The notes beneath the pieces were generated by a model. That model had not been told where the DNA came from, ran no database searches, and worked only from the letters and a program-made list of their open reading frames with translations. Positions 8,058 to 47,270 of a DNA stretch of 64,000 bases are shown one piece after another; the stretch's first letter is position 1, and each line of letters starts with the position of its first letter. The stretch spans positions 26,784,001-26,848,000 of the forward strand of contig NW_027266319.1 in assembly GCF_022045235.1 (NCBI RefSeq), given 5' to 3'. The DNA comes from Haliotis cracherodii. Taxonomy: Eukaryota. The translations under genes and the position numbers were made by a program.

Positions 8058-11000
8058 ATGAGGGGTGCCTGGTGTATTGCAGTGGTCAGCGTCACGCTGT
8101 GGGCAGCCTTTGCCGCAGCGGACAGGTGAGTGGACTGTCTTCTCTTGCCGTCCTCTGATCAACACATACCAGTAAATAACCGTGAAGATCCGGGGTAGAA
8201 AGAGGCGACTAATGGGGTCGCGAACTCGCGAACTTGGTTGATGCATGCTATCGTATCGTAATTGCGTGGTTCGATGCTCATGATGTCAATCACAGAATTG
8301 TCTGGTCCAGACTCGATCATTTACAGACCGCCGTCATAGTGCGGCGTTAAACAAACAAACAAACAAAGCATATATCGGACATCTGCATAGTCAAATAATG
8401 AATCTTTATACTATAACAAATTGACAGCTTATAGATTACACGCGAATGTTTATTGATATGTGGAAGAAAATAATATTTATCGTGCAACGGTTGTACCGAA
8501 CGTTGCCAGTACTGCATAATGGTGTTTTAATTTACGGAAACATAAGTGCCAGGATAAATAAACGCTATTGATAAATAGCAGCGATATGAGATAATAAAAG
8601 ACATTTAATTTACAAAGGTCAGTTATTAGATGTCAAAGGTTTATTTGAAGTGATGGAGTACAACACGTCACACCCTGTTTAGTCCTGCATATATTTAGCT
8701 GTCTTGGATGGGTCGCTGATGAAGACAGATGTTAAGGTCTGGGGTGTACGAAATAGTGAGTGAGTTGGGTTTATCGCCGCTTTTAACAGCATTCCAGTTA
8801 TATCAGGGCGTGTCACCTTTAGGTGGGAGGAAAGCCTGCTATGATGCAGGTCCCGAAACATGGTTTCTGGCGTGTCTAGGGACGCAACTCTGCACAGCAA
8901 ATTGCGGCGCCTTAGACGACTGTGCCACTTGGTGTACGGAATAGTTTTTGTTATATCTCAGTACCAGAATTGTTCTTGTGGTTGATGATGCATATGTAGC
9001 AGGGAATTGCAACTTCTCCAACACATGCAATTGTGGTTTAAGGAACGTTACTATATTTTTCAAAATTGTCACAATACGAAAACCAGTTCCTCGTCTGCAG
9101 GTGCCAGTACTCGTGCAGCAAACAGGAGCGCAGCAACTACGAGTGCGGATGGTGGGGATGGAAACGCTGCAGCAGATACAGGTCAGTCCACTGCGCATCA
9201 TGTACGCACATACAGGAAGGGGGGTCATATTAGAATGGAGATACAATACACTGGATAATCGAGGATAATCTTAAATAAATGCATGCCCGTTTAACATATG
9301 CTTATAATCCTATATTCATATTGTGGTTTCTGAAAGTTATATATTCAAATTGTGGTTTTAGTATAGATATTAAATAGTTTCACCTAAATAATATTTCTCA
9401 CTTACAGGAGCGTCCCCAGCACCTGCTACAGAGACTGCACACGTGAGTCTAGAAATAGTCTTTGTGTTAGCCAATGGAAGTGTAAAGGCAAGTACTGGCA
9501 TATCACGGAGTGATGACCGTGGGTATTCAGGGTTATATACCGTCTTCCTCACATAATCTTACCACGAGGGCGTGGATCGATGCTCATAATATATATCGCT
9601 GATTTATGGCAGATAATCCATGACTGTACACTGTATACAGAACAGTAGCCTGCCAGTCACCTTAATGCTGTGTGCACTTTAACGTTTTAGGTACTTTCTC
9701 GGTATGACCACCGACCTTCCGTTCTCCGGGCTTACTCTCTATCCACTACGCCATTTAGGCAGTCTATTCTTATTGGAGAACCATATAGTCAAATTACTGG
9801 GTGCTGTGGTACAAACCGATTGTAGCGCTAAGATGATCGTAACGCTCATACCTTAAGTAGACTTACGACAGTCGCAGCGCAAAGGTTGTTTTGTACAACG
9901 ACACCCTGGTGTATAACGAAGGTCAGATTTGTTAAAGGGTTGATATGTAGGTTGTTGCTGTATATGGTTCAGTATGTGTCACCCTTGATATCATTCTTCG
10001 TGTGCAGATGGCCAGTGGAGCGCTTTCTCATTGTGGGAAGCGACCAGCACGTGCTCTCATACTTGTGGGGGAGGGGAGATAACCCAGCAGAGAACCCGCC
10101 AGTGTAACAACCCCGCTCCTAGCAACGGCGGCAGACCGTGTGAAGGCGAGACGTCGGAGACGAGGACCAGCACGTGCAACACTCACCCCTGCCCAAGTAC
10201 GTCAGTCACGCCCGTGAAGATCCGGGATAGAATAGGTCTTCAGCAAAACATGCTTGTCGTAAGAGGCGACTAACGGGATCGTGTGGTCAGGCTCGCTGAC
10301 TTGGTTGATGCATGTCATCGATGCTCATGATGTCAGTCACGGGATTGTCTGGTCCAGACTCGATTATTTACAGACCGCCGTCATATAGCTTGAATATTGC
10401 TGAGTGCGGCGTTGAACAACAAACAAACAAAACAATCGTTAAAGGTTTCGGTAATTAGTAATTTTTTCTCGTGGCCCACTCCACAAAGTGATCTTAGCGC
10501 TATGACTATATCGTAAGTCTATGTGAAAGACTGAGCGCCGAGATAGCTTTGCGGAACTATCCTCTGGTCTGCTGTAAGACTGATATGCATACATGATATG
10601 TATTTACATGTAAGTAAAATGTCATTGCTAAAACTAAGTACGGTGCTTGGTGTCCCAGTTGCCGGTGGGTGGAGCGCCTGGACGGAGTGGACCCCAATTG
10701 ACGAGTGCCCGGCGCTGTGCGGAGGGGGGAAGGCGGATCTGACCCGCTCCAGGACCTGTACCAACCCCTCCCCACAGTATGGCGGGGCGGACTGTGTCGG
10801 TCAAGCGACCCAGACTACCATAATGGGCGACTGCAATGTGGACTCGTGTGCTGGTAGGTGCATTGTTATACGTCACTTCCTGTCTCGTTGCCATGGGGAT
10901 GTTATAGTTTAAACTACATGCACCTACCTTAAGTAAGAGAATTTACGGATGTCAACTCTTTATTATGAGGAACACAACGTTTCGGAGTATATACTTACTC

Positions 11001-14000
11001 CTTCATCAGGTGAATACCTACCTAGACCAATACACACATCAGTCTAATGGTAATTACATTTTAAATTTGCAGTAAACTTTGAATATAAAAAAAGACAGCC
11101 CTGAACCTGTACAGCGATATAGACAAGATAAGGAACAGAGCGTATCCATTTGCACGTGCATTCCGTGAAACTCAACCATGCAGTCGGTATCGTCAAGGTT
11201 ACAAGACAGCTTGGAATGAGTGAGTGAGTTGGGTTTAACGCCGCTTTTAACAGTATTCCAGTTTTATCGCGGCGTGTCAGCTTAATGTGGGAGGGATGAC
11301 CGAAGTGATGCCGGTCTCAGACGTTTACCACTTCGGCGAAACCCACGAGCACGGGTATGGTGCTGACAAACCTAGAAACATAATCGGGGCGAACAATCGG
11401 AATTGGAACCCACAATCATAGGTGTCTGTCGTGCCCAAGGAACGCAACTCTGCACAGCGAGTCGCGGCGCCTGAGACGACTGTGCCACCCTACGTGCCCC
11501 CAGCCAGCTTGGAGCAATAAGTTGACTTCAGTAACTATAAAACCAAAGTATATTACGTTGTAACACGTCACTTTGAGTTACATTATATACGCAATACTAT
11601 TGTTCTCCAGTCGGGTTAAATCTCATAAACAGGGATGTTTTAATATACCCGGGATTTTATTAATTTAATTCAACTCCTGTTAATATTGTTACATATGTAT
11701 GTTTGTCGCTAGAAACCTATTTTGCATTAGAACACAATGTAATGAAAATCAAATGACCAATGTTTCCTTTATATCCCCGAGGATCGAACATGAAACCTTC
11801 GTATCTGTAGCCCAGTGAGTGTACATTTGGCTACAGACGCGCTGATAAATCACAAAGCTTTTAAGAATGTCATTTTCAAGTACCGTACGCCAGCAACTGA
11901 TTTTTTACGCTGTTTCCTATGGTTAATGAAAATTATGTTTGAATCATAAACAATGTTCATAAATGTTGTTTTAAGTTTCATTTTTTCGGTTTATAAATTA
12001 GATAAAACACCTATCCTCGTTTTTTTATGAGATATACACCCCGAATCCAAGCGATTTATCCCACTGAATTACAACTTCTTTGTTATACTGTAATAGCCAC
12101 GTTTCGGTCTTGCTTGACAACGGTATAGGGTCTATACCGAAACGTCGCTATTACACTTTTACTTTCCAGTCGGGTTAAATCTCATAAACAGGGACGTTGT
12201 AATGTCCCTGGGATTTTATAGGATATTCAAGTCATATTTGCTATAATAACCCGGGGATTTTATATAATGTCCTGGGTATTTTATTAATGTAACTTCCGTT
12301 CAGATTGTAACATGTAATGAAATGTAAAATCAAATGACAAATGATTTCTATATATTCCCGAGGATCGAACTCACAACCTTCATATCTGTAGCCCAGTGAG
12401 TGTAACACGAGGATACAGAGGTGTTCATAAGCGGCACTGGGGCCCGTTCCACAAAGCGATCTTAGTGCTAAGTTGGTCGTAACTCCCGTGCTTTATGATA
12501 GGCTTACGATCAACGTAGCACTAAGATCGCTTTGTGGAACGGGGCCCTGGTTGTAAGAATGTCCTTTTCAAGATCCGTACGCCAGCAACAGATATTTTAC
12601 GCGCGTTTCCTAAGGTTCATGGAAAGTATGTTCGAAACATAAAAATGTTGATAAATGTTGTTTTAAGTTTCTTTTTTCGGTTCGCCCCCTTGGTTTTTCT
12701 CTCTCCCCAGGGCGTGCTCTGTCTACCAAAAACGAGGGAAAGTGTTTTCTCCAATACTATTACCTTTGTCATCAGACAACTTGAAAGGCTTTATACCCGA
12801 TCAGCTGTAAAGTTTCCGAATGTATGATTATAAAAACTGGCCCTAAACATCCCCCCTAAGCCAGCATTACAACATGTTGCGCCAATACGACCAGTGGGCA
12901 AGCCCTTGCCCCTCGGCTGTGTTAACCACTAGGGCAGAGTCATACAAATAGGTCCAGGGGAAGATGCTTTACAATACGTACAAATACATCCAGACAATTA
13001 CTATCCGTCCAGTTAATGATACCTTCGAGCGATACCCCCTGGGGCACGCCAGAAACCTAGGATTGTGGGTTCGAATCCCGGTTCGCCACGATTATGTTTC
13101 TAGGTTTGTCAGCACCATACCCGTGCTCGTGGGTTTCACCGAAGTGGTAAACGTGCGAGACCTGAATCACTTCGGGCTTTCCTCCCGCATTAAGCTGACA
13201 CGCCGTGATATAACTGGAATACTGTTAAAAGCGGCCTTAAACCCAACTCACTCACTCGTGTGATATGATGATGATTGAAGCATTCGAGGGAAGATGCAGA
13301 TGTTAATATTGTATCCAATTCTCTGCCTTTGACTGTTTACAATCTTCTTTGATCTACAGGGCTTAACTTATTATCATGGTATAGATAGCATCTGTATAGT
13401 TCGAGTCGTACTATATTGTATAATCGTTTCATCCTGCTTGCAGATAATAATCTGCTATATACTTTTTATCGCATGGGATGCCGTTTCTTGCCCAAGGGTA
13501 TTGTTCTTATCATTTGGCGTGTTTGTGTTTATCATTTTAAACTGGGTGTGATCTTAAAGGATAAGCCTGCGTAGTCTCTGTGTTTTATGGCCTTTTCTAT
13601 ATCTAATGACCAGGGTCCTGTTGTACAAAGCGATCTTAGCGCTGAAGTTGTCGTTAGACCCCATACCTTAACATAGACTTACGACAGTCATAGCGCTAAG
13701 GTTGTTTTGTACAACGGCACCCTGTGACATGGTTGGGTACAATGTTACGAGAATGGTTTGCAATAATTTTATTTTTTATTACCCATAGGGTTAGAAATTA
13801 CCGAGAGAAAATCGTGCGTGAGCTTTTGTGTGCTAAGATCTTTCTCGCGCACCAGTGTATTGTATTGACGTCATTCGAATCTTTTTGTGACGTGAACACT
13901 AGAAACGACGTCAAAGTTTGAAGTTTGTTGACGTCATTTGACAAATTGTTGTTTTCTAGGACAAGGGTGGTTATCAGTGTTTATTTCTAAAGGGGGCTCA

Positions 14001-14764
14001 AGGTGATTAAGAAATGATGGGTAATAACGAAATTATTTCACTTACATGTGTGTCATACGATAAAAGAGCTGAATAATGATTTTTTCCCCGATGTTTTTTA
14101 CCTGACTTTTTATCTACACCTTATCAATTCATAATGATTAGGTTTCTAAACATTAAGAACAGATTTCGTTACCATATATATTTCTTTTCTTTTTGTCGTC
14201 TTCGGGAGGAAGAAATTAGAAAACCGGTCGCTTTGATAGAAATTATCCCGGACGCTCCAGTGTAAATACAATTCAATATTTCAGTTACGGACGCACAGTT
14301 TAAGGAACATAATATCACATGTTAATACGCATTCGTTTGATTGAACGCTGTCTGGATAAACGGGTATTTACTTTACAACTGGATAGTTTTAAATGGACAC
14401 AAAAACAGTATTAAATGTAACAACGACTTCTATTGTAGATGTCTGTGCCCCTGGCAACCCAACAGTCGTGCATCACGAGACCAAAGAACACCTCTACTAC
14501 GAGTGTGACGAGGCCGGTGACGTGGCGTACCTGGAGGAGTGCCCCGACTTCTCCACCTTCAGCCCCATTGCGGAGACGTGTACGCCACTGCCGTGCAACA
14601 TCATGGACGGCCTGTATCAGACGTTCCCCGGCGACTGTCGCAAATACTTCATGTGCCTGGCGGGTACTCGCACTATTGACCTAGTGTGCCCCTCTGGCAA
14701 GGTGTTCAACGGCGACACCCGCATCTGTGACGACCCCGCCACCACCCAGATATGCGGCATGTAA
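8058..14764 (+). CDS. Secreted protein, about 297 aa: signal peptide, Cys/Trp-rich EMI-like motif, 2 thrombospondin type-1 repeats, 2 chitin-binding type-2 (CBM14) domains; exons 8058-8125, 9101-9181, 9408-9442, 10008-10196, 10659-10853, 14439-14764
   Basis: All five introns are GT-AG with compatible phases (2,2,1,1,1). [21 protein letters not shown] is a signal peptide, followed by [26 protein letters not shown]1 motifs [27 protein letters not shown] and [29 protein letters not shown]14 motifs [14 protein letters not shown] and [23 protein letters not shown] at about 14812. Confidence 0.88.
8179..8368 (+). mobile_element. Retroposon family A, internally deleted copy
   Basis: CCGTGAAGATCCGGGGTAGAA 5' end and GCGGCGTTAAAC(AAAC)n tail. 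Confidence 0.85.
8755..8935 (-). mobile_element. SINE family B, internally deleted copy
   Basis: Head and tail match 1086-1364. Confidence 0.8.
9800..9905. mobile_element. PIF/Harbinger-type MITE (about 107 bp)
   Basis: Palindromic element flanked by CTG/CTG; same family as 12440-12546. Confidence 0.7.
10211..10435 (+). mobile_element. Retroposon family A, single-hairpin subfamily
   Basis: Intact 5' motif CCCGTGAAGATCC...GTCGTAAGAGGCGACTAACGGG and (AAAC)n tail. Inserted 14 nt into an intron. Confidence 0.88.
10930..11015 (-). ncRNA. Minimal hammerhead ribozyme in a Penelope-type fragment
   Basis: Minus strand reads CAC CUGAUGA A GGAGUA-AGUAUA-UACUCC GAAA CGUU GUG, followed by AAUAAAGAGUUG. 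TSD ACCTACCT at 10922-10929 and 11016-11023. Confidence 0.75.
11217..11500 (-). mobile_element. SINE family B, full length
   Basis: Collinear with 1086-1364. Confidence 0.88.
12068..12156 (+). ncRNA. U3-A8 variant minimal hammerhead (12110-12150) preceded by an inverted partial copy; Penelope-type fragment
   Basis: GC UUGACAA C GGUAUAG-GGU-CUAUACC GAAA CGUC GC. Bases 12068-12108 are the reverse complement of the same family's 3' part. Confidence 0.7.
12440..12546. mobile_element. PIF/Harbinger-type MITE, best-preserved copy
   Basis: About 30-bp TIR GG(G/C)CCCGTTCCACAAAGCGATCTTAGTGCTA; CTG on both flanks. Confidence 0.8.
13040..13258 (+). mobile_element. SINE family B, 5'-truncated
   Basis: B box GGTTCGAATCCC, family body and (CTCA)n tail. 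Confidence 0.85.
13614..13721. mobile_element. PIF/Harbinger-type MITE
   Basis: Same palindromic family; CAG/CTG flanks. Confidence 0.7.
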
Positions 14765-15172: not shown

Positions 15173-15473
15173 GAGGCCTAGTTAAGATTTCCGTTCCGAA
15201 CCGAATATATTACCGGTAATCAAAGTCATAATTTTGATAGTTGATAATAATGTTACCTGCAATTTTGTCAAATTATACAGTTTTCCTTCAATGTATGCAA
15301 TTTTGACCCCCTGAAAACTCACGCACGCACTTGCAAGCTTACTACCCAATGAAGATTGTGCGCAGATACCTCCTTTATGCAATACAAAAGGTTTAAGGTG
15401 TACAGGAAAATGTGGAACGAAAGTCTTGTTTTTCACCCCTGGCCAACTGACTATCATACCAAAAGACGTTAAA

Positions 15474-15574
15474 TTGTTTGATAGGCATTACTTAGAAGTT
15501 GATGATGACAAAGTAAACTTCTTCTTTAATACTCTAAAGGCGACGTTTCGGTATAGCTCCTTATACCGTTGTCA
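15474..15574 (-). ncRNA. U3-A8 variant minimal hammerhead insert nested in a Meta-SINE fragment
   Basis: Minus strand reads UUGACAA C GGUAUA-AGGAGC-UAUACC GAAA CGUC GC. 13-bp TSD AAAAGACGTTAAA at 15461-15473 and 15575-15587. Confidence 0.7.
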
Positions 15575-15722
15575 AAAAGACGTTAAACGATGGTATTTGT
15601 ATTCTACCTGCCTGGCGCTCGGCAATAAAGAAGTAAAGCAACGACAGGTCCCACCTGCTCAAAACGACCTGAGGGCTTTAGATATAGTAATTCTATCTTA
15701 AAGTAAGGGAAGTACGATCCTT

Positions 15723-17921: not shown

Positions 17922-20900
17922 TCACCACATAAAGCGTTGAAGTTCATTAGAATCTGGCCAATGGAACGGTTTATACAAAAACATATAAAGTGCTGCTGCA
18001 TTGATGAAAAGAAAATACAGGAACTCCAGACCTAAAATAACCTTAGAAGGGGACTGGTCATTGATATTCAATCTCCAAATATAAAACGGAATGACAAAAT
18101 ATCTGAACTCGAGAAGTTTTTGAGGAACAATGGACACAACAAGACACACCCAGAAACACATCCTCCAGACGATGGTCTTGTGGCTTAATGAGCTGCTAAA
18201 GCTGATCAAGCCAAAACAATACATCGGAACTAACAAAAACTTGACCAGTTCGTGTCGTCTGTAGATCTTCGACCAGACATAAAAAGGGTAGTGACGATTG
18301 TCTGCCAGAAGATATTCATGCACGTACGTAAAATTCGAGATCAGGTATGTTGCAGCTACTACAAAAATGCTGACCAAAAAATGATGATTGAAAAGGAATT
18401 TGAAAAAATATATGATCTTTGATCTGGACATCAAATGCATAAAGCTAAAGACGAGACATGTACTTAAGAAATAAAACACTTGAGGAAAATTAAGACATGC
18501 TTGATGATGACTTCGATCGCCAACCACGATGCCATTGTTGATGTAAACAAAGACAACAAATAGCAAAACAATGAACATATAAGGGAGAATAGTTTTTAGG
18601 ATATTTTGCACAAAATTAAATAATTTCTTTCGGTCATGTATCAAGGTCTTGCTGAGGCATTTAAAGAGAGGCTTAAGTATGGTCAAAGAATATTTATCAA
18701 TGCTGTCCTTTCCTCGGTACTGTTTGCAGTCATCGAGCCATTTAAACACATCTTTCTCACAGGCGATGCCGGCCATGAAGACTACCCAGATGATGTTGGT
18801 CTGGCGAAACATGATAGCAATGGCGCCGCAGACGGAGGCGGAGACGTGGGCATGGCGGAGGCAGGCGAGGTACATGAGGAGGACCCAGAGGACGGAGCCT
18901 GGGTCGGTGTAGTAGAGGAAGGTGAAGAAGTAGAGGACGGGGTACAGTCCCAGACACAGTCCCTGGAGGGTCTGGGATAGGGAGTCCGTCCTCTGATTCT
19001 GAAATGAAAAATAATAAAGATTGAGGTAGGACAAGGTCCTTTACGGGCCACCAGAAATGTTAATTTTCATAAGGTATGAAAAATTACCAGACGTGTTTAA
19101 ATTTGCTGAACTCTAGCATTCTTTCTTACACTTGTACTTCCAACATGATCAAATACCAAGATGTATGCATTACCATCCACTATATCCCAAGAAAATCAGC
19201 TCCAGTAAAAGACTTGCTCATGTCTGTGTGTGCGTGTCTGTCTGTCTGTGCTTGTAATAGTCCGGACTAATGCCTATTTCATAGTGCTAGCTGAGATACC
19301 AGCCGCAGGTTAACATATATACTGGTTCCCCACCCAGACACAGTATACCGACTCTGAGCTGACCAGTCTTTGTTTTAGCCCCTTAATGTTGAGCACAAGG
19401 CTCATCTTTTAACGTCTTTTGGTATGACGCGTCCGGGATCGAACCCCCAACCTTCAGCTCTCTGGGCAGACACTCTACCACTTGACCACGGACTGGTCCC
19501 TTAAATTATGAATTTGTCCAGGATTCCAAGAAAGTGCCCTTGTCATGCAAATTGGGATTAAAAAGAGTTATTTTGTTAGAAATAGGGATTTTCCTTTATT
19601 ATTAATTTCGTGATTTCAGAGGTATTTTAAAATAAAAAATGTAACTATGTGAAATCAAGCATTAAAGCCTCTTTCTCTTTGTTGGTCCTGTTGTCCATAA
19701 TATATAAAAGCCACCTCAACCAAGCCATCACAGTAATTAGAACCTTTTTAACATGATTTGGGAAATTTTAATTTCCATTTGCAACCTGTTGCTGCAGACG
19801 TGGGGCTTAATATCGTCCTCTAAGCAGGTCTATATAAATCACTGTCCTGAATCAAGGCTAGAACTACAGCACACTATTACAACCTGCATCAAGGACAGGT
19901 AAGGAGGACCTGAATCAAGGCTAGAACTACAGCACACTATTACAACCTGCATCAAGACCAGGTAAGGAGGACCTGAATCAAGGCTAGATCTAAAGCACAC
20001 AATCACAACCTGCATCAAGGACAAGGAGGACCTGAATCAAGGCTAGAACTACAGCACACTATTACAACCTGCATCAAGGACAGGTAAGGAGGACCTGAAT
20101 CAAGGCTAGAACTACAGAACACTATTACAACCTGCATCAAGACCAGGTAAGGAGGACCTGAATCAAGGCTAGAACTACAGCACACAATTAAAACCTGCAT
20201 CAAGACCAGGTAAGGAGGACCTGAATCAAGGCTAGAACTACAGCACACTATTACAACCTGCATCAAGGATGGGTAAGGAGGACCTGAATCAAGGCTAGAA
20301 CTACAGCACACAATTACAACCTGTATCAACAACAGCTAAGGAGAATCCAATACAAGGGATTTTTTCTCTCCAGCTCAAGGGACAAGGGACCTATCATGCT
20401 GGTGGCAGTAGTAGTAGTAGTAATGGAGTACGTGAGTGAGTAAGGTTTTACGCCGCTTTTAGCAATATTCCAGAAATATCACGGCGGGGGACACCAGAAA
20501 TGGGCTTCACACATTGTACCCATGTCGGGAATCGAACCTGGGTCTTCTGCGTGACGAGCGAACGCTTTAACCACTAGGTTACCTGACCGCCCAGTTGTAA
20601 TGGAGGTAGTAGTAGTAGTAGTAATGGAGGTAGTAGTAGTAGTGGTGGTAGAAGTAGTAATTTTCAATAAATAATCTAAACCAGACAATCCAGTGATTGA
20701 TATTGTGGGCAACAAACCACATCATAGGGTACACAATCAACCATGTCAAAAATTCTGACCACCAGATCATAATAGTTGCCTCTTACAAGCAGCATAGGTT
20801 CCTGGGGACCTATTCAAACCAGAAATCTCAATGGGGCAGTGGTAGTTGTAGCAGCAGTAGTAACATAAAATGATATCCAGGTGATACTTACCTTCTTTTT

Positions 20901-22590
20901 CCCATTGGGGATGGCAGCAGCAAGCAGATATAACACACACACATTAGCCAGCATGAATAGCAGGTTGACCCCACGCAGAACGAGGGTGGAGCAGACACTA
21001 GCCGGGGGCACCTGCAGCAGCCGCGCCATGGGGACCAGCACCCCTGCAGACATCAGGTACAGTCCCGGCAGGGTGGTGATCATTGGGTCCCACTGGAACA
21101 TACACAACCACTGAAAAATAGGCAACTAATGAAACATACACAACCAATGAAAATATACTTCTTTCTGTTATTGACCCATATGTCTGTTTGTTTACTCAGC
21201 AATATGCCAGCCATATGACGGCAGTTTGTAAATAATCGAGTCTGGACCAGACAATCCAGTGATTGATATCATGAGCATCGATCTATGCAATTGGGATACG
21301 ATGACATGGATCAACCAAGTCAGCGAGCCTGACCACCTGATACCGTTAGTCCCATCTTACAACAAGCATAGACCTATTCTAACATGGGACTGGCCTATAA
21401 ATAATTGAATCTGAATCAGACAATCAAGTGATTGATATTGTGAACAGTGTTCCATGCATCACGGTATGAGGACACACAATCAACCATGTCACCGAGCCTG
21501 ACCACCTGATCCATTTGGTCACCTCTTATAACCTGCAGGTTACTGGGGATTTATTCTTACTCGTAATCGCCTAAGGATTTCTGATTATTAATCTTGCAAT
21601 CAAATGCATGAAAACTGTCATATTTGATATTTATTGGGAAATGAAGAGCTTTGTAACAACTTCAGAGGATACATATAGTGAGTGAGTCAGCAATATTTCA
21701 GCTATATCATCATGTCTGGAATTCATCAATTTTGGGTGAGACAAACAAGTGGTTGATATCATGAGCATAATTCTTAACAGTCAGGGGTTCAGAATCCTAG
21801 GGGTAAACAAACTGAAGCATTGAGCAGGGTGCATTTGGGACCAAAATAACACTTGCACTTTTGAGATGTTAATGCAATTTGAATTTTTAACTCACACTCA
21901 GTAATATTCCAGCATTTGACGGGGGTCTGTAAACAATCAAGTCTGGACCAGACAATCTAGTGATTGATATCATGAGCATCGATCCACGCAATCGGAATCG
22001 ATGACATGCATCAACCAAGTCAGCAAGCCTGACCACCCGTTCCCGTTTGTTGCCTCCAGTGAGGCGACAGAATGAAACATTAACCAACATAGATATTCAA
22101 ATATAAAATATAACGAAAATGTGTTGGATGATTGAATGTCGAATATGTGTAAATGGTATAGTCGGTGAGAGTAAGCTAGTGAGAATGTTGAAATAAATGT
22201 GTATGAATCTGAGATTGTTGTGTATTCTTGTGGAAGTGTTACAAGATGAGAAGTAAACTACTGTCACAAAAGCGTTTCTGTGTCTCGTATCATGATACAC
22301 ATATCATATGTGGTGCCGTCCCCTGCGACAATCTCTGGTTACAGGAAGTGTTTGAGCCGTTTTGACGTGTTGATGGGTGCCGTTTCAGTGCTATTGTATC
22401 TCAGTCGATGTTGAATCGATAAGGTAACTTCAGATCGCACCTCTGATAGATTCCCATGACAATATTGTTGTGCTTGGGGAATATGAAAAATCTCGTCCAT
22501 ATAAGGTTTTCCTTGTACTTCATTGATGACTTTCAAGACCGTTATTCCGCAGGCTGCATAGAGCAGCAACCCAACTGTAAATGCAATCAT
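17922..22590 (-). CDS. ALG10: Dol-P-Glc:Glc2Man9GlcNAc2-PP-Dol alpha-1,2-glucosyltransferase, about 475 aa; exons 22590-22441, 21092-20892, 18998-17922
   Basis: Signature motifs PYMDEIFHIPQAQQYC, WDPMITTLPGLY, FLYYTD, RQTNIIW, GIVVGDRSHH, YLLADNRHYPFY, VPQKLLEFRYF and terminal QRFMW. Two phase-0 GT-AG introns. Confidence 0.96.
19230..19497 (-). mobile_element. Meta/MESC-domain tRNA SINE (family D)
   Basis: Reverse complement matches 59899-60215 (GTCATACCAAAAGACGTTAAAAGATG core). Confidence 0.8.
19846..20345. repeat. 63-bp minisatellite in ALG10 intron 2, about 8 units
   Basis: Unit CCTGAATCAAGGCTAGAACTACAGCACACTATTACAACCTGCATCAAGGACAGGTAAGGAGGA. Confidence 0.92.
20430..20592 (-). mobile_element. 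SINE family C within a (GTA)n-rich tract
   Basis: tRNA-Asp-like head (TTCGCTCGTCACGC...GGTTCGATTCCC) and family tail. Confidence 0.85.
21185..21560 (-). mobile_element. Two adjacent family A copies in ALG10 intron 1
   Basis: TCTGGACCAGACAATCCAGTGATTGA...GAGCCTGACCACC body occurs twice. Confidence 0.8.
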
Positions 22591-24639: not shown

Positions 24640-25640
24640 CAAGCGGTGTGTGATTTTTTCTGAGACTCACATAGAAAGACTTGACAAAACAACTTATTTA
24701 TTTTTAAACATAGTCCCCTTCCAAACTGATACACGTCAACTGACAACGGCGTTGCAATGATTTTATCCCAGTTTCATGGAAGTCCTTCTCTTGGATGAAA
24801 AAAACGTTCTCCCAGCTGCTATGACGTCATCGTTCGAGTCGAAATGGGTTCCGGTTAGAACTTTCTTTTGCTTGGGAACATATGGATGACTGACGGAGCC
24901 AGATCAGGAGAATCATCTAGATGCTGAAGGTGTTCAAAGCCACACTCGTGGCTTGTAGACATCTCTTAGTCTTAATTTAATCCCCTAATTGCCTAAAAAG
25001 CGCAGACTAATATGCCCCGTTGTCAGGCGTTTTGGAAGATATTCTACAATTATATACCACCACGATATTCTACAATGATATTCTACAATCATGACACCCT
25101 CGGCAATCCAGAAGCATACTAGCTGACGTGACAGTCTTTGCTTTCTTTGGTGGTGGTGATGTCATGCGAATGCATCCTCTGTTTTCATTGTTGTTTGTTC
25201 CCAGGTTTCTAACATAGATCCACATAGATCCTTGTATTTATTAAAGAACATTTCTGGATCGGTATATATAAGATATTGTTCTGGGTCACAACTTCTTTAT
25301 TCTGTTATGATGCGACGTTCCGGTATAGATCCTTACACCGCTGTCAAGCACGAGTGAACGTCATAAGGATCTATACCGGAACATCCCATCATAATATAAT
25401 AAAGAAGTTGTCGTCCATAAAAAAAGATATCTCGTCTTTACTGTTACTTACCAACTTCTAAAAATGCCAATCCGCTTTAACCAGAGCTAGAATACCACGA
25501 GACATGCATTTTGTGCGTTTTTGATCAGATGTCAGAATTAAGCTTTGGAACATGAGCTGACATTTTCTTCGTTGCCATTCTCTGGATAATTTCCGGTATT
25601 TCTGACGTGACCGGTCTTCCAGGGTAGGGATCGTCTTCAA
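24640..25640 (-). mobile_element. Decayed mariner (DD34D-type) transposase remnant, interrupted by a Penelope-type fragment
   Basis: Minus-strand peptides KMSAHVPKL / LTSDQKRT, SPPPKKAKTVTSA, GFEHLQH..SPDLAPS, THFDSNDDVIAA and CISLEGDYV, with frameshifts and stops. Confidence 0.8.
25285..25440. mobile_element. Inverted pair of Penelope-type fragments carrying a decayed UUGACA-type hammerhead
   Basis: Minus strand GC TTGACAG C GGTGTAAGGATCTATACC GGAA CGTC GC ATCATAACAGAATAAAGAAGTTG, abutting a plus-strand partial copy at about 25362-25410. Confidence 0.65.
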
Positions 25641-26520: not shown

Positions 26521-29500
26521 ATGTCTGCCACATCTGCATCTGTTAGCGAGAATACGCGTGATCTCGAGGAAGGGAAAATGGCGAAGACGGGTAAGAAAAG
26601 TTGCAAAAATTTAGCCTTTTACAACAACCTACGGACTGCAACATTATTTCATAACATGACAAGTGTTTCAAAGTTAAGCTATAGTCATTTTGTAATTTTG
26701 TGTAAAAATGGGCAGTACGTTCAATGTTTTGCTTGTTGTTTTTCAAATGACTAGTGTTTCGCCGGTCAACAGGATAGGCCTAGGCTAGTTTGGCCTATTG
26801 ATTTTCGAAATGCCACATTGCAATTGAGATTTTCTGACACGTATGCGGGAGATAACATGGACATTGTTTCCATTGTTGCATACACGCATAAAACGACTTG
26901 CGAGTATGCAAAGGTTGTCGTCAGGTCATTCTGTGTTCTTTTTCTTCAAACGGAGACATATTAGATCATATTACGGACAAAACTGGTTCAGATGTAAAAC
27001 TTTAAAGAGCCAACCAAGAACGCCATAAGGATCTATGAAAACAATCAATACTAACTTATGAAGTCATATCGTTATGTTAGATATGCATAGATACACAATA
27101 CTATATTTGTTGTATTATTGGTAATGAAATATTGTTGGTTTTATTCTTCTATTTTAGTCAAACATTAAACGCTCTGTTGCCATGGCTACTCGTTTGTAGT
27201 CATTATGTAAAGTTTATTGTAACATTTATCTGCATTTCTAATCCAAAGATGATGGCTGTAGTAATGAGTTGTTACTGTTATTATTAGTCTGGACTGTTCA
27301 TGGCATGATTAACGTTTGGCATACAAGCAAAAACATCTGAACATGCTGATATTGGAAGACAAGCTAAAACACCTCAATGTTCTCACATAATAAAAACACA
27401 TTAACATTAGCAAAATTATAATAATTTCTTGCAATATATTGAAATGACGCTGAAAACTTAAACAACAAAAAGCAATCATGATTTAGGGATAGTTTAATTC
27501 AACAATGTTTATTAGTTCATTTATTATCATACAGTTACTTTTAAAGTATATTTTAAATCAGAGCTTTTTCTTTCATCATTTACACATGGCACATACCTTA
27601 AGACAAAAAAAACCCCAGAAAATTGCAATACACTTCAGGGTTCCATGCCACTTGCTTCAATACAAGAAAATAAATTGGCATTGTTTTATCCATTACAGTG
27701 GAACAACTCAGTACAATGGCTGATGACGTGTCAATCGATTCATATCTGTATATATGCTTTATGTTCATTGCTTTGAGTTGGAGACAAGTGATGATTGTTT
27801 CTACCATGTCTACAGACAACAAGCTTTTTACTCTTGAAATGCTACATTACATTTGGAATTTTCTGCTCCACATGATTCATATGCAGAAGATGACATGAAC
27901 AGTGTTTCTTTTGTTGCATACATGTATGAAAAAGTTTATTTTTGCCTTTGTGCAAGGTTTGTCCTTCTGATCCTATTTCCTGAACAAAGATCTATATTGC
28001 TTTATAAGAGTTGAAGACGCTACACATTGCATATGATATACATATAAAATTCTTATATTTCTTTGTTTGTTTGTCGTTTAATGCCGCACTCAGCAATATT
28101 CCAGCTATATGACGGCGGTCTGTAAATAATCGAGACTGGAGCAGACAATCCAGTGATTGACATCACGAGCATCGATCCATTCAATTGGGATACGATAACA
28201 TGCATCAACCAAGTCAGCGTGCCTGACCACCTGATCCTGTTAGTCGCCTCTTACGACAAGCATGGGGTTGTTGAAGACCTGTTCTACTTATGACTCGGAC
28301 CTATGTTAATATATCCAATGTAACAAATCTGTAATTGGTGATTTCCAGGAAACTCCCAGGAAGTGTTGAAGTACTTCAGTTTAGTGTGCCTGACCCTGCA
28401 GAATGCTCTGCTCATCCTTGTCATGCGCTACGTGCGTACACGTGAAGGAGACATGTTTATGGCCACCACTGCTGTCATCCTTTCTGAGGTACTCAAGTTC
28501 TCGTCCTGTTTGCTCCTCATCCTCTTCCAAGAAGGCAGCTTGAAACGCTTCCTGCAACGTCTCCACGAAGACATCTTCCAGCAGCCGCTTGACTGCCTCA
28601 AAGTGTCTGTGCCTTCATTCATATATACACTGCAGAATAATTTGCTTTATGTGGCTGTGTCAAATTTGGATGCTGCAACTTTTCAGGTAAATGGACGTTA
28701 TTATCATCATTATTGTTTAATCCTTAATGGGATTCTTTAGTTGACAGACAGATGTTAGTCTGTGGATTGTCAGGTGTGTGGATGTAGTTTTTTATATATT
28801 TTTAATATTAGGTTGCATTATGTGATCATGACTTAAGAGCCAAGTGATAGATGTTATTTTGTATGCAAATAATTCTGGAAGAGTTTTTTGGTGTTAGTCA
28901 TTTTCACTTTGAAAACAACACCAAATCGGTTAATTATGGAATTGTTAATCCTTTTAACTTCCCTTGATGATGATCTGTGTACCTATTAACTCTCAAGTGT
29001 ATGAAAGTACAGAATGCTTAAAAAAGGGGGATGGATGCAGCCATCTGTGCCCTAAACATTTGAGACTACAGTGTTCCCTCGCTATTGCACTCTTCAATAT
29101 TGCGCTAACTCGGTTATCATGGTTATAGCGCGGTAAAGCATGGCTCCCAAAATATATTTACATTTTTAATTTTTTAATAAGCTCTAGTTTTCTAGTGACA
29201 CAATGTTTTTCCCATCTCAAATAACATTGTCAGCTGATCACCGTGATCACATAACACCGGAAACACCAGTCAACAAATCTGAACTGAAGTACGCAATTTA
29301 ATCCCATTATTATACTATCTGGTTATAACAAAGTGTACAAATTTGTTTATCTGGACGTATGTTTGTAATATATTTTATTAATTTTATTCAAAATTTCATT
29401 CAATAATATTTACATTAGTTTTGGCAAAATCGTGTGTGAAGTGATTGGTAGATGGCACAACTCACCGTTATTTACAGCAACCACGGTCAGAATACCGCTA

Positions 29501-32500
29501 CTGATGCCTTCAAAGGAACTTTAGTTGCAAGATACATTTATCATAATTCCATACTAACACGATGGAATGATAAAATGATTATTTTAGATACAATTTCTTC
29601 TGATCATTGCATCAAAATTCTTTGAAGTTGTATCATTGGGTTCTTTTTAACTGAATCACCGGTAGATTGTGAGGAAATGTAGCATTGTAGCGAGGGATCA
29701 CTGTGTAATGTACATATGTTGAGTATATCTGTTTTATAGAACATCCTGTTACTTCTTATCTTGTTTGCCCCTGTAAAACCTTTCTGATCTAATGTAACAA
29801 TCCAGAAAACTTTAGGTGATCTACTGCCAACACAAAAATGACAGAGACAGAGTGTTTCAATTTGTAATTTGTCCTCAGATAACTAAAATTCAATATTTTT
29901 TAGGCTTATCCTATCTTACACTATGCATTTCTTCCTTATTCTTTCGATCCTTCTGTTGAAACGTGCTTGAACAAAGTTTCCAGCTTCTAGAAACAATTCA
30001 CCCAAACACATCTCAGCATCACCATGGTCACCACCCAAACAAATGGGTCACACACATGGGTAATCCTGTGCATATCGACCTGCACGATATGATCACATGA
30101 CTACCTCTGCCACATCAATCTCTTCCTCTAACCGTAATACTGATCGGCGGTCTAAATCTAAGGATGCAAAATATAGGCTTTCCTCTGCTGAGAACTCGAA
30201 CGTGTTACCGAGTTGGCTGTTTCTTCCACCATAACAGCTGTAAAACCACCTCTAAAGCCAACACGGAAGTCTTCTGTGCCACAGTCTCCTTTTGGCCCCG
30301 CTTGACTATCCTGTGGGCCTACACCTTTGCAGGATTGCCTCCTCCAGTGACATCCAATCCACATGAGCCATCATCTCTACCATGGCCCTGCACAGCAATA
30401 TTTTAGTCTGTCTGCCATTATGGTGGGTTGTTTTTGGAATACCGATACTGTCTTTGTCTCCCACTATCTTCGTGACATCTCAGTCACCAGTGTTCAGGGC
30501 CTCCACCAGCTTGGTGCCTTGGTCCTGGCCCAATGCAAAACAGTGGAGAAAGACAATACTCGTACCTCTTGCTGCAGCCCAGTATTCCGTATCATGCACA
30601 AACATAATAATCATTGGAACATCCTTTCTTTGTTTTTTGTCATTTTCAGGGGTTGATTATTCAGGTTCCTAGACTGAGTTCCCAGTGGAGGGTCAACTAC
30701 CTTTTCTGAAGAGACTCTGGTCTTCAAAGTTGAATTTGCCTCCAGGCACGTCAGTTTCGTCGGTGTCTCGAGCCCTTGCTTACTTATCTCTGCCTTGTGC
30801 ATGTGACATATCGTTTGTTTTTTTTAAATTCTTTTATGGATATTGTCCATTGTTCCTCTTCACTTCTTAGCATGCTTTAATCCCTGGGGCATGATTGATA
30901 GGTTTGACAAAGCGTTAAAAGAGATGCCAAGCTTGACACCCTTTTGTTCGTCTGAGATAGTGGTTTGGCCTGTCTTGAAGAATCAATTGACTGGAGACCC
31001 TTCTGGATTGACTATGTCATATGCTGAATATAACACAATTCACAGCTATGTGCTTGTTCATGAAACTATGACATAATTAAGCAACATGACATATGTTTTA
31101 CATGATTATCCTGTTACATCTGACTAACATATAGGGATCATATTGCCTGTTTTGGTGTGTTTTCGGCTCACGAGTTCTTGTCTAAACGACACTACCGGTA
31201 GGCAGTGTTAAAAAATATTTTATTTGCGTCACTGTTTAGCACCAGCTTCCTCGTGTACGTCTCATGGTTGTAGTCTATTCAGTCTTGGGTATCTGTGCCC
31301 CATCGTCCAACTGGGTAATAACTGCATAGTGTGAGATAAGATAAGTTTAAAAATTTGTAAATTTTAGATTAAATTGTATATTGATATACTTATCGTATCT
31401 CACACAGTATATCACTGGTATATGCCGTCCTGACCATCCCCGCATCAAAGCTCCTCTAACCTGTTAGCTCTAAGAAAGGGAATGATGTGGCAGGGATAGA
31501 TATGATCATATCGTGTAGGTCGCTGTGCACGGGATTACAGTGCGAGACCCAATGACCATTGTGTTGATGGGATGTGTTCAAGTGAATTGCTTTTAGAAGC
31601 TGGAAACTTTGTTCAAACATGTTTCCTCAGAAGGATAGAAAGAAGAAGGAAGAAATGCATTGTGTGAGATAGGATAAGTTTATCAAAATACAATTTAATG
31701 TAAAAGTTACAATTCTTCTTGTTTGGCAGTCCTAACAACACACCAACTCTGGCAAGCCGGATATCGAATTTTCAGCACACTTGCACTGGGCCATGAACAA
31801 TTGCAGTGCATTGTTCTATCCTTCATAATATAACCACAGTCATCATAATAATATACACATGATAGTACAGATATAACTCATATTCTGCCAGTGGCTTACT
31901 TACGAAAATTGAATTGATTAGGCTTAAAAGAATAAAAGAATTTGTTCTTAGCCAATGTCTTTTGAAAATATGGTGAAGGCAGGCGGTGGTTTTCTTCTCT
32001 CTTTTTTTTTGCTTGTTCAAACTAAATTGTAACCAAATAAACAGTTGTGTACCATCAACCTGGGAAAGGGCCTCCCTACATAAACAAGCATACAAACTCC
32101 TATTGCCACCATGACCATAACCTGAGATGCACAGTAAAACAGTGTGCATGTAAAGGGAAGTAACTGCATCCATATTGGATTGCATTGTTTTTAAGTGTTA
32201 GGATTTTTTATTTTTTCTAAAAATGGATATAAAAATGAAACGTGCAGCAGACTTTCTGATGATGCCGGCAGTGCCTGAGAACCAAGACTATTATTTTTCT
32301 AATCATTATGAATCAGAATAAGTTTTGTAACCTTTTTTCATGTTTGCTATGATTGTAACAAAGGGATACTCATCATTTTCATGATGTACTATATTTGCTA
32401 CAGGCTATCCAATATAACTTATAACACTTGCTCCTTACAGGTGACCTACCAGCTGAAGATTTTAACAACCGCCATCTTTTCTGTGTTCATGCTGAAGAAA

Positions 32501-33088
32501 CAACTGAGTAAGCTCCAGTGGATCGCACTGCTCATTCTGTTTGTGGGCGTGTCCATCGTCCAGATGCAGCCCACCGCCGACAAGAAGGACGCGAAAGAGG
32601 AGAAAGTGACCACAGAACAGAATCCAGTCAAAGGTCTCATAGCAGTCATCATATCATGCCTCATGTCAGGGTTTGCCGGTGTATACTTCGAGAAGATTCT
32701 TAAAGGCACGAACCAGTCTGTCTGGCTGAGGAATGTCCAGCTGGGCATGCTGGGCAGTGTCATAGGCGTCATCACCATGTTGATAAAGGATGGAGAGAGT
32801 GTAAAAGAAAAAGGGTTTTTCTTTGGATACGATGGAGTGGTAATGTTTCTTGTATGCCTGCAGTCGTTTGGGGGCCTGCTTGTAGCCGTTGTCGTGAAGT
32901 ATGCAGACAATATTCTGAAAGGTTTCGCCACCTCGGCAGCCATTGTGATATCCTGCATCGCATCCATATACTTCTTCAAGTTCCAGTTATCCATTCAGTT
33001 TGTTGTGGGTGCTTCGTTTGTCATGCTGGCGGTGTATGTCTACAGTAGATTTGTCCCTGCACCACCCAAAGGATCGCAGTCAGCTTAA
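26521..33088 (+). CDS. SLC35A2: UDP-galactose translocator-like nucleotide-sugar transporter (SLC35A family), about 351 aa; exons 26521-26590, 28349-28686, 32441-33088
   Basis: LKYFSLVCLTLQNA, ATTAV..EVLK, VPSFIYTLQNNL, AATFQVTYQLKILTTA, SGFAGVYFEKILK, SVWLRNVQL, GGLLVAVVVKYADNILKGFATS. Intron phases 1 and 0. Closer to A2 than A3 by recalled motifs; exon 1 is less certain. Confidence 0.9.
28060..28290 (-). mobile_element. Retroposon family A in SLC35A2 intron 1
   Basis: Body and tail match; single hairpin. Confidence 0.85.
29069..29703. mobile_element. Non-autonomous pogo/Tigger-like element
   Basis: TIRs CAGTGTTCCCTCGCTA and TAGCGAGGGATCACTG; TA on the left flank, TG on the right. Confidence 0.7.
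29905..31678. mobile_element. Two related non-autonomous DNA elements in opposite orientation (29905-31345 and 31389-31678)
   Basis: Four termini share CTTATC(C/G/T)TATCT(C/T)ACAC; about 250 bp at 29905-30160 is the reverse complement of 31430-31678. Confidence 0.65.
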
Positions 33089-37989: not shown

Positions 37990-38246
37990 AGGGTAGAAGA
38001 GGTCTTCAGTAACCCATGCATGCTGACAGAGGCGACTATGCTTGTTGTAAGAGGCGACTAATGGGATCGGTCGATCAGGCTCGCTGATTTTGTTGATGCA
38101 TGTCATCGTATCCCATTTGCTTGGATCGATGCTCATGATGTCAATCACTGGATTGTCTGGTCCAGACTCAATTAGTTACAGACTACTGTCATATAGCTGG
38201 AATATTGCTGAGTGCGACGTTAAACAACAAACAAACAAACAAACAA
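37990..38246 (+). mobile_element. Retroposon family A, slightly 5'-truncated
   Basis: TCCTGATAACCA repeated on both flanks; (AAAC)n tail. Confidence 0.88.
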
Positions 38247-45999: not shown

Positions 46000-47270
46000 T
46001 AGTATGACCAGAAATTATTGAGAATTTTAGGATTATGTTTAAGTGGATATCTAGTATAAACAAACACTGACCATCTATCAAGTGCTTGGTTTCATTCAAG
46101 AGAGACAACTCAGTTAATCCTATTTCATTATTTGTCAAGAGTTATCCCCCTTTGCTTACTTGCTAGCAGACGTAATTTTCAGTGATCTTCAGTATGGATG
46201 ATTTAGAGAAGAGGGGGTTGATTTTGGAGTATTATAACAAGGACATCAGATCAGCTAAAGTGATTTCGAGTAGAACAGGCATCCCTTTGTCCAATGCGTA
46301 CCGTGTTTTGAAAAATATTGAAAGTGGAGGTGGCATTGAGCACAAGAGAGGCAAAAGTAGGCCCAGAAAATTGACAGTCGGTGACATGGGGCGGCTCGGT
46401 ATTCTTGTTTCTAAAAACAAACGTAGGAGTTTAGGAAACTTAAGACTGGAAATGATTGATAGAGGAACTGTGGCTGTCTGTGAGGAGACAATTAGAACTG
46501 AGCTGCATGCAATAGGTTGGGAGAAAAGTCGAGGAATTCCATCACCGAACATGAAACCTGAACAAAAGGAGCGAAGGTTGAACTGGTGCTTAGAGCATAG
46601 ACATTTTAACTGGGACAATGTGATTTTCTCAGATGAAAGTTCTGTGAGGCTGTTTCCTAATACACTAAAATTCTGGACCAAACAAACCTTTGTATCAGCG
46701 CCCAAAGTACGGTCCAAAATTTCACGAGTGGAGTGGCATATCTGTTTTAGGGGCAACGCCCCTGTGTGTATTTGAGGGGAATATAAATAGTGCGCGGTAC
46801 ACAGATATTCTCGAGGGACATTTACTTCAATCTGCTCAAGTATTCTATGGAAATTCTTGGATTTTCCAGCAAGACAACGACCCAAAACATCGCTCAAAGC
46901 ATTCTCAGGCCTGGTTTCGGACCCAAAATATGACATTATTAGATTGGCCAAGCTACAGCCCTGACCTAAATCCAATAGACAATGTTTGGGGGCTTATGAA
47001 GGAAAGTGTCAATAAGAAATGTCTGACAAATATTGCTGAAATGAAAGAAGAGTTGGTCCGATATTGGGACAGCATGAACAACTTCTTTGATCAGTAGTAT
47101 GCCCCTCGCCTTGAAGCCTGCATTGCAGCCCATGGTGACTTGACAAATACTAAGTGTTCACCTGTCTTTGAAGCTCGAGTTATGTTGTACTAATATTCAC
47201 ATTTAATACGTGAGTAATGAGTGAGAAAAAAATACAATCTTTAAATTCTCAATAATTTCTGGTCATACTG
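46000..47270 (+). mobile_element. Full-length Tc1-like DNA transposon with frameshifted transposase pseudogene (about 46194-47150)
   Basis: About 28-bp TIRs (C/T)AGTATGACCAGAAATTATTGAGAATTT with TA on both flanks. Motifs SRPRK, WDNVIFSDES, FQQDNDPKH, WPSYSPDLNPIDNVW, split over two frames. Confidence 0.93.

What the first reader, a model, noticed from the sequence alone, without database searches (positions are those of the whole stretch)
12068..12156. Hammerhead family with a natural U3-A8 core covariation
Seen: copies at 12110-12150 (+) and 15538-15575 (-) read UUGACAA-C-[GGUAUA stem II UAUACC]-GAAA-CGUC-GC. A decayed copy is at 25310-25352 (-). Stem II is retained while its loop varies (GGGUC, AGGAGC, AGGAUC). 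Known: C3 and G8 of the CUGANGA core form a tertiary Watson-Crick pair, and U3-A8 is the compensatory variant; GUC is the canonical cleavage triplet. Searches for CUGANGA would miss this family. Stem I is only about 2 bp here, so activity is uncertain.
Basis: partly seen in the sequence, partly recalled or inferred. Interest (0 to 1): 0.7.

Follow-up and report, generated by a model that had tools for sequence, protein, structure and literature searches.

The report
Penelope retroelement stubs with minimal hammerhead
These are three short, broken-off ends of a Penelope-type jumping gene, a family with thousands of copies in this genome; each carries a predicted self-cutting RNA motif in a variant form published in 2011 and 2014, and all three copies are likely inactive, so the finding is ordinary.

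Summary
The three motifs are real and at the stated places. They are 5'-truncated ends of a Penelope-like retroelement (PLE). Longer copies elsewhere carry an RT plus C-terminal GIY-YIG ORF, and one has the hammerhead at both ends, 3.1 kb apart. The genome holds 1,016 strict matches, and 3,610 U3-A8 cores against 1,079 C3-G8, 145 C3-A8 and 124 U3-G8. U3-A8 is fixed in three subfamilies whose proteins are 51-59% identical. The covariation is therefore between families, probably a single event, not within the family. This architecture (U3-A8 core, extra base after A9, loopless palindromic stem III, inverted pairs) is described for Schistosoma PLEs (PMC4209133); natural U3-A8 also appears in PMC3088659. 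The window copies are likely dead: two are predicted to be locked in hairpins by inverted arms, one of them also has a core mutation, and the third has lost stem I. Of 30 copies, 29 run past the cut site, so the insertion template was likely uncut. Cleavage is untested. This scan reported the same kind of stub twice before in this genome. Verdict: new member of a known kind, low interest.

The parts
12068..12108 (-). Copy 1, inverted (antisense) 5'-truncated arm of the element's 3' end
   Evidence: reverse complement matches the part of the element from the end of stem II onwards
12107..12156 (+). Copy 1, sense arm with the minimal hammerhead
   Evidence: (87% identical to L051 over 61 nt)
12114..12146 (+). 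Hammerhead core: U3-A9 12114-12120, extra C 12121, stem II 12122-12128/12132-12138, GAAA 12139-12142, CGUC 12143-12146; predicted cut after 12146
15471..15575 (-). Copy 2: truncated at the core (15575-15542); runs through the 'tail' to the first codons of the element's ORF
   Evidence: (79% over 126 nt)
15575..15587 (-). 13-bp direct repeat, likely target-site duplication, left of copy 2; its last base doubles as U3
15461..15473 (-). 13-bp direct repeat, likely target-site duplication, right of copy 2
25276..25358 (-). Copy 3 sense arm; decayed core 25347-25314 (A9G, GGAA)
   Evidence: the GGAA form has only 11 scattered matches in the genome, so it is not a subfamily
25357..25424 (+). Copy 3 inverted arm, truncated within stem II; forms a long hairpin with the sense arm
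   Evidence: -74.8 kcal/mol, z -14.8
10976..11009 (-). Comparator: minimal hammerhead with canonical C3-G8 core from another repeat family (540 strict matches); no parent ORF found

Best explanation
The three motifs are short 5'-truncated ends of a Penelope-like retroelement whose pseudo-LTR carries a minimal U3-A8 hammerhead motif, predicted to cut weakly and only as a dimer or with the element's protein, and likely inactive in these three copies. Shown: the family link, the copy numbers, the position of the motif in the pseudo-LTR (about 205 nt after the ORF stop, and about 73 nt before the ORF start in the 5' copy), the inverted arms and the two clusters of 3' ends. Inferred from known PLE biology: the element's protein nicks DNA and reverse-transcribes from one of two internal sites downstream of the ribozyme; most reactions abort within about 150 nt, often leaving an inverted second arm. 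The template was likely uncut at this ribozyme, since the copies run 45-100 nt past the GUC site. In the master element U3-A8 likely replaced C3-G8 once, keeping the tertiary pair, and was then kept while stem II changed compensatorily. In the window, copy 1 and copy 3 are predicted to be sequestered by their antisense arms, copy 3 has core mutations, and copy 2 has lost stem I.
For: 1,016 strict matches, control 0. L001 has a GIY-YIG-type ORF ending about 205 nt upstream of the motif. L051 has a 594-aa open frame with RVT_1 (E 5e-11); its C-terminal part has GIY-YIG-carrying eukaryotic clusters as nearest in the Atlas (0.95; family on 29% of members). L137 has the motif at 629 and 3722 in the same sense around a broken ORF; L138, L139 and L137 show that the tail is the ORF start. 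3' ends fall at +47 to +56 (13 of 30) and +88 to +102 (15 of 30) from the cut, with 1 at +66 and 1 misaligned. An inverted arm lies upstream in 14 of 30 loci by a loose 11-mer test. Of 30 loci chosen by the core, 29 continue into the family's downstream sequence. Sister subfamilies whose proteins are 51-59% identical keep U3-A8 and change stem II compensatorily. Genome 2x2: U3-A8 3,610, C3-G8 1,079, C3-A8 145, U3-G8 124; the listed mismatched ones (100 of 145, 100 of 124) are mostly scattered single mutants of both family types. In an 11-row alignment the 3-8 pair is U-A in 7 rows and C-G in 4, and 5 of 12 pairs change on both sides. In 200-nt context G12-U16.1 is unpaired with probability 0.02 or less in copies 1 and 3. 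Literature: PMC4209133, PMC3088659, PMC11167929, PMC8557442.
Against: No cleavage data. Pfam's GIY-YIG model did not hit the endonuclease; PHROGs gave only E 0.02 for one of two proteins. No RT tree was built, so the Penelope/Poseidon placement rests on domain order and a Cys-free linker. No parent ORF was found for the C3-G8 families, so the direction and number of changes at 3-8 are not established. The rows were hand-picked and are related; only 1 to 2 independent events underlie the 3-8 covariation, and the count of covarying pairs was reached by 149 of 500 shuffles. Stem I is 2-3 bp, shorter than the 4-5 bp typical of Schistosoma motifs. The dimeric active fold scores -12.7 kcal/mol against -27.9 for the best co-fold (tertiary contacts are not modelled).
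Confidence: 0.9

Rival explanations
1. The family motif is a catalytically dead relic; it is kept as a protein-binding or promoter-proximal structure of the pseudo-LTR and never cleaves.
For: Stem I is only 2-3 bp and the dimer fold is unfavourable. Copies extend past the cut site, and 5' ends do not pile up at it (1 of 30 exactly at the site). In the anole element, ribozyme mutants did not affect insertion in vitro (PMC11167929).
Against: The core letters, the NUH triplet and the 3-8 pair are kept across families whose stem II and spacer sequences differ. The anole PLE motif does cleave when the element's protein is present. Schistosoma minimal motifs cleave weakly as multimers.
Confidence: 0.25
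2. The window copies are host-domesticated ribozymes or hairpin RNAs that regulate the neighbouring genes.
For: Copy 1 lies in sense between a TSP1 exon (10547-10912) and a chitin-binding exon (14393-14764). Copies 1 and 3 fold into stable hairpins (z -5.5 and -14.8).
Against: Hairpins are the usual inverted-arm structure of these insertions (14 of 30 loci; PMC8557442). The copies are 79-87% identical to a family member, with mutations in core and loop alike, and the core is predicted to be sequestered. The mir-3179 Rfam hit on copy 3 is 35.8 bits against a cut-off of 90.
Confidence: 0.03
3. A free-standing, non-autonomous hammerhead SINE or retrozyme family unrelated to an autonomous element.
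For: Most copies are short; local tandem arrays of the motif exist (39-nt units in L014, 46-nt units in L086).
Against: The 5' ends are scattered from +7 to -477 and grade into the ORF; the sequence is continuous with RT-endonuclease copies.
Confidence: 0.04

Closest known systems
Minimal hammerheads of metazoan PLEs, U3-A8 type of Schistosoma mansoni Cercyon-related elements (PMC4209133; parts 1-2 of 4 of the text read, figures and supplements not seen)
   Same: U3-A8 core, extra base between 9 and 10.1, G10.1-C11.1, long helix II, palindromic 15.2-16.2 without loop 3, place in the pseudo-LTRs, inverted pairs, mostly solitary truncated copies.
   Different: Different host and sequence family; helix I is 2-3 bp (4-5 bp in Schistosoma; 2 bp in D. 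virilis Penelope); U3-A8 is the majority core among motifs fitting my pattern (3,610 against 1,079).
Poseidon element of Anolis carolinensis, PAc (PMC11167929; parts 1-2 of 4 read)
   Same: RT plus C-terminal GIY-YIG; hammerhead at the pseudo-LTR/ORF junction; two 3' ends defining a tail that reaches into the ORF start; insertion copies made from uncut RNA.
   Different: PAc has C3-G8 and its ORF starts at stem II; here the start codon lies about 73 nt after the cut site.
Natural core variants of hammerheads (PMC3088659; section 8 and passages read)
   Same: Natural covariation of C3-G8 to U3-A8, stated to be active in vitro.
   Different: The section read does not tie those examples to PLE minimal motifs.

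Membership tests
Minimal type I hammerhead of PLEs | Core 3-9 with Watson-Crick pair 3-8 | tested here: met
   UUGACAA in copies 1 and 2 (A9G in copy 3); pair 3-8 is U-A in 7 and C-G in 4 of 11 rows
Minimal type I hammerhead of PLEs | G12-A13-A14-A15.1 and NUH cleavage triplet | tested here: met
   GAAA and GUC in copies 1, 2 and the family; copy 3 has GGAA and fails
Minimal type I hammerhead of PLEs | Extra base between 9 and 10.1; G10.1-C11.1; long helix II | tested here: met
   G-C in 11 of 11 rows, helix II 5-7 bp, two pairs with changes on both sides
Minimal type I hammerhead of PLEs | Palindromic, loopless helix III for dimer formation | tested here: met
   ACGU in 11 of 11 rows
Minimal type I hammerhead of PLEs | Helix I | tested here: inconclusive
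   2-3 bp, with G-C to A-U change at the second pair between families; missing in copy 2
Minimal type I hammerhead of PLEs | Self-cleavage at C17 | not testable with these tools
   only contig data were available
Penelope-like element, EN+ (Penelope/Poseidon) | Single ORF with RT | tested here: met
   RVT_1 E 5e-11; weak PDB hits include telomerase RT at E 0.028; no fully intact ORF seen among the copies fetched
Penelope-like element, EN+ (Penelope/Poseidon) | C-terminal GIY-YIG endonuclease | tested here: met
   Motif visible; Atlas best hit 0.95 with PF01541 on 29% of members; Pfam HMM itself did not hit
Penelope-like element, EN+ (Penelope/Poseidon) | No Zn-finger-like Cys motif in the RT-EN linker (present in Neptune and Nematis) | tested here: met
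   linker read by eye has no Cys; criterion from PMC8557442
Penelope-like element, EN+ (Penelope/Poseidon) | Pseudo-LTRs with hammerhead flanking the ORF | tested here: met
   L137: motif at 629 and 3722, same sense; 1 of 3 loci fetched for this shows both full motifs
Penelope-like element, EN+ (Penelope/Poseidon) | 5' truncation, inverted upstream copy, optional 30-40 bp tail | tested here: met
Penelope-like element, EN+ (Penelope/Poseidon) | RT phylogeny within the Penelope/Poseidon clade | not tested
   no named reference PLE proteins were in hand
Non-LTR retrozyme | Tandem units each with a hammerhead | tested here: not met
   window copies are solitary and 3-10 kb apart; small arrays exist elsewhere

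The most novel reading that the evidence does not exclude
A TATA box sits 38-39 nt upstream of U3 in all three U3-A8 subfamilies although their spacer sequences differ, which puts the transcription start about 8 nt before the core. The ribozyme would then be the very 5' end of the element's mRNA, and protein-assisted cleavage would remove the capped first 42 nt upstream of the start codon: a negative feedback switch of the element on its own translation, with U3-A8 as a tuned-down core.
Probability: 0.12. Interest if true: 0.5.

Novelty: new member of a known kind. Interest (0 to 1): 0.14.

Why it matters
Modest. It adds an animal genome in which the U3-A8 minimal hammerhead is the majority core among motifs fitting the pattern used, so CUGANGA-only surveys would undercount PLE ribozymes here. 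Related U3-A8 subfamilies and C3-G8 families in one genome give a ready comparative set for the open question of what PLE hammerheads do. The window copies themselves are decaying stubs.

Tried and rejected
Rfam scan: no hammerhead model hit; mir-3179 on copy 3 is far below its cut-off and was rejected. tblastn of the element's ORF against the window: no hit, so there is no coding part in the window. C3-G8 revertants within the family: 0. Parent ORF of the C3-G8 families: none found in L072-L086 or L140-L169. Pile-up of 5' ends at the cut site: 1 of 30 exactly there and 7 of 30 within -3 to +7, near the limit set by the search pattern; not convincing (one row misaligned). Copy 3 as a GGAA subfamily: rejected, 11 scattered matches. 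Expression: no RNA holder listed on record. Contigs of four runs from four organism codes hold the family and list no difference at the U3 or A8 position at the 5% threshold (2 rows not shown), but contigs cannot show ends or transcription. Paper searches: hammerhead + Penelope + Haliotis, 0 papers; hammerhead ribozyme + C3U + G8A, 0; the U3-A8 wording was found only in PMC4209133. Two papers were not held: Luense et al. 2017 on PLE hammerhead dimers, seen only as a reference and summary in PMC6765202, and a recalled 2007 paper on 3-8 pair exchanges. The supplements of PMC4209133 were not opened and may list mollusc examples. The retrozyme preprint 10.64898/2026.07.22.740005 (passages) added nothing on the core.

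Full report
Observation. The three motifs are present as described. Copy 1 has its core at 12114-12146 (+), copy 2 at 15575-15542 (-), and copy 3 at 25347-25314 (-) with A9G, a G.U pair in stem II and GGAA in place of GAAA. A strict pattern finds 1,016 matches in the 1.18-Gb genome and 0 with the reversed control. Rfam has no matching hammerhead model at E up to 10. The window also holds a C3-G8 motif of the same shape at 11009-10976 (-), from a family with 540 strict matches.

What it belongs to. Among the first 30 loci, L001 carries an ORF with a GIY-YIG-type C-terminus ending about 205 nt upstream of the motif. A protein search found 151 matches among 3,336 candidates, of which 150 were scored. 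L051 has a 594-aa open frame with an RT domain (RVT_1, E 5e-11). Its last 115 residues have GIY-YIG-carrying eukaryotic clusters as nearest neighbours in the Atlas (score 0.95, family on 29% of members), although Pfam's own model does not hit. The RT-endonuclease linker has no cysteine, which by the criterion in PMC8557442 (passages) points to Penelope/Poseidon rather than Neptune or Nematis; no tree was built. L137 has the motif at both ends, 3.1 kb apart in the same sense, and shows that the sequence after the motif runs into the ORF start about 73 nt past the cut site. The window itself has no coding part.

Anatomy of insertions. In 30 loci chosen by the downstream flank, 3' ends cluster at +47 to +56 (13) and +88 to +102 (15) from the predicted cut, with one at +66 and one misaligned; 5' ends scatter from +7 to -477. 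An inverted arm lies upstream in 14 of 30 loci by a loose test; three pairs of these loci are the same insertion. This matches the truncation, inverted copy and optional tail described for PLEs (PMC8557442; PMC11167929, parts 1-2 of 4 read). Of 30 loci chosen by the core alone, 29 continue into the family's downstream sequence, so the RNA that was copied had likely not been cut at this ribozyme, as found in vitro for the anole element. Copy 1 is an antisense arm (12068-12108) joined to a sense arm (12107-12156). Copy 2 begins at the core, includes the tail, and lies between 13-bp direct repeats. Copy 3 is a two-armed hairpin.

The covariation. Within the family U3-A8 is fixed: 1,016 U3-A8, 28 C3-A8, 5 U3-G8 and 0 C3-G8, the last with a slightly looser pattern. 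Sister subfamilies whose proteins are 51-59% identical to L051 keep U3-A8 and show a compensatory A-U to G-C change in stem II. With one generic pattern the genome gives 3,610 U3-A8, 1,079 C3-G8, 145 C3-A8 and 124 U3-G8; the listed mismatched ones (100 of each) are mostly scattered single mutants of both family types. In a hand-picked alignment of 11 rows, 90.8% of cells pair, the 3-8 pair is U-A in 7 and C-G in 4, and slid controls pair 17-55%. The rows are related, so this is about one independent event at 3-8; its direction is inferred from C3-G8 being canonical, since no ORF was found for the C3-G8 families.

How it likely works. Stem III is the loopless palindrome ACGU, which can pair only between two molecules. 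Stem I is 2-3 bp in all families aligned. The dimeric active fold scores -12.7 kcal/mol against -27.9 for the best co-fold, without tertiary terms. Published minimal motifs show no monomer activity and low multimer activity (PMC4209133); the anole motif cleaves only with the element's protein and is not needed for insertion in vitro. I therefore infer a weak, dimer- or protein-dependent ribozyme in the master element. The window copies are likely silent: G12 to U16.1 are predicted paired with the antisense arm in copies 1 and 3 (unpaired probability 0.02 or less), copy 3 has core mutations, and copy 2 lacks stem I. A TATA-like box starts 38-39 nt upstream of U3 in most copies of all three U3-A8 subfamilies where the script found one, and 34 nt upstream in the main C3-G8 family. 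The TATA-to-start spacing of about 30 nt is recalled knowledge. D. virilis Penelope is reported to have a TATA-less internal promoter (PMC2377424, abstract). This is the basis of the novel case and is untested.

Comparison and novelty. PMC4209133 (parts 1-2 of 4 read; figures and supplements not seen) reports the U3-A8 covariation in Schistosoma PLE minimal hammerheads (about 1,300 hits), the extra base after position 9, the palindromic 15.2-16.2 and opposite-strand pairs. PMC3088659 (section 8) reports natural U3-A8 and states that it is active in vitro. A search for hammerhead, Penelope and Haliotis found no paper, so this particular family may be undescribed. Earlier notes of this scan reached the same reading for two other stubs in this genome; they are not independent support. 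Verdict: new member of a known kind; interest 0.14.

Noticed in passing
L032, L033, L038, L039, L040, L043, L049, L050 (3' pseudo-LTR): 8 of the 20 best-scoring endonuclease copies are interrupted 7-11 nt upstream of U3, at the predicted transcription start; in most, LINE-type ORF pieces follow.
   Followed up: partly
window 10976-11009 (-): Canonical C3-G8 minimal hammerhead of another repeat family (540 strict matches, GUU triplet, similar downstream sequence); parent ORF not found.
   Followed up: partly
L086:2391-3650: Tandem array of about 30 units of 43-46 nt, each a C3-G8 minimal hammerhead: a natural multimer that could self-cleave as dimers.
   Followed up: no
L014 and L017, upstream of position 1501: Short tandem arrays (39-nt units) of the U3-A8 motif; in L014 the repeated units have ACAUC in place of ACGUC.
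   Followed up: no
window 25276-25424 and 12068-12156: Both arms of each hairpin share private changes (GGAA and the following bases in copy 3; GCTATTACA in copy 1), suggesting arm-to-arm conversion or copying after insertion.
   Followed up: partly
window 46176-47097 (+): Tc1/mariner transposase remnant in two frames (HTH_Tnp_Tc3_2, DDE_3).
   Followed up: no
window 17922-19040 (-), 28342-33088 (+), 59275-59685 (+), 10547-10912 and 14393-14764 (+): Host gene exons: ALG10, a nucleotide-sugar transporter, urocanase, TSP1 and chitin-binding domains.
   Followed up: no
window 21194-21369, 28058-28263, 38038-38243 and others: An abundant SINE-like repeat of about 200 nt in both orientations, plus many minisatellites.
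   Followed up: no
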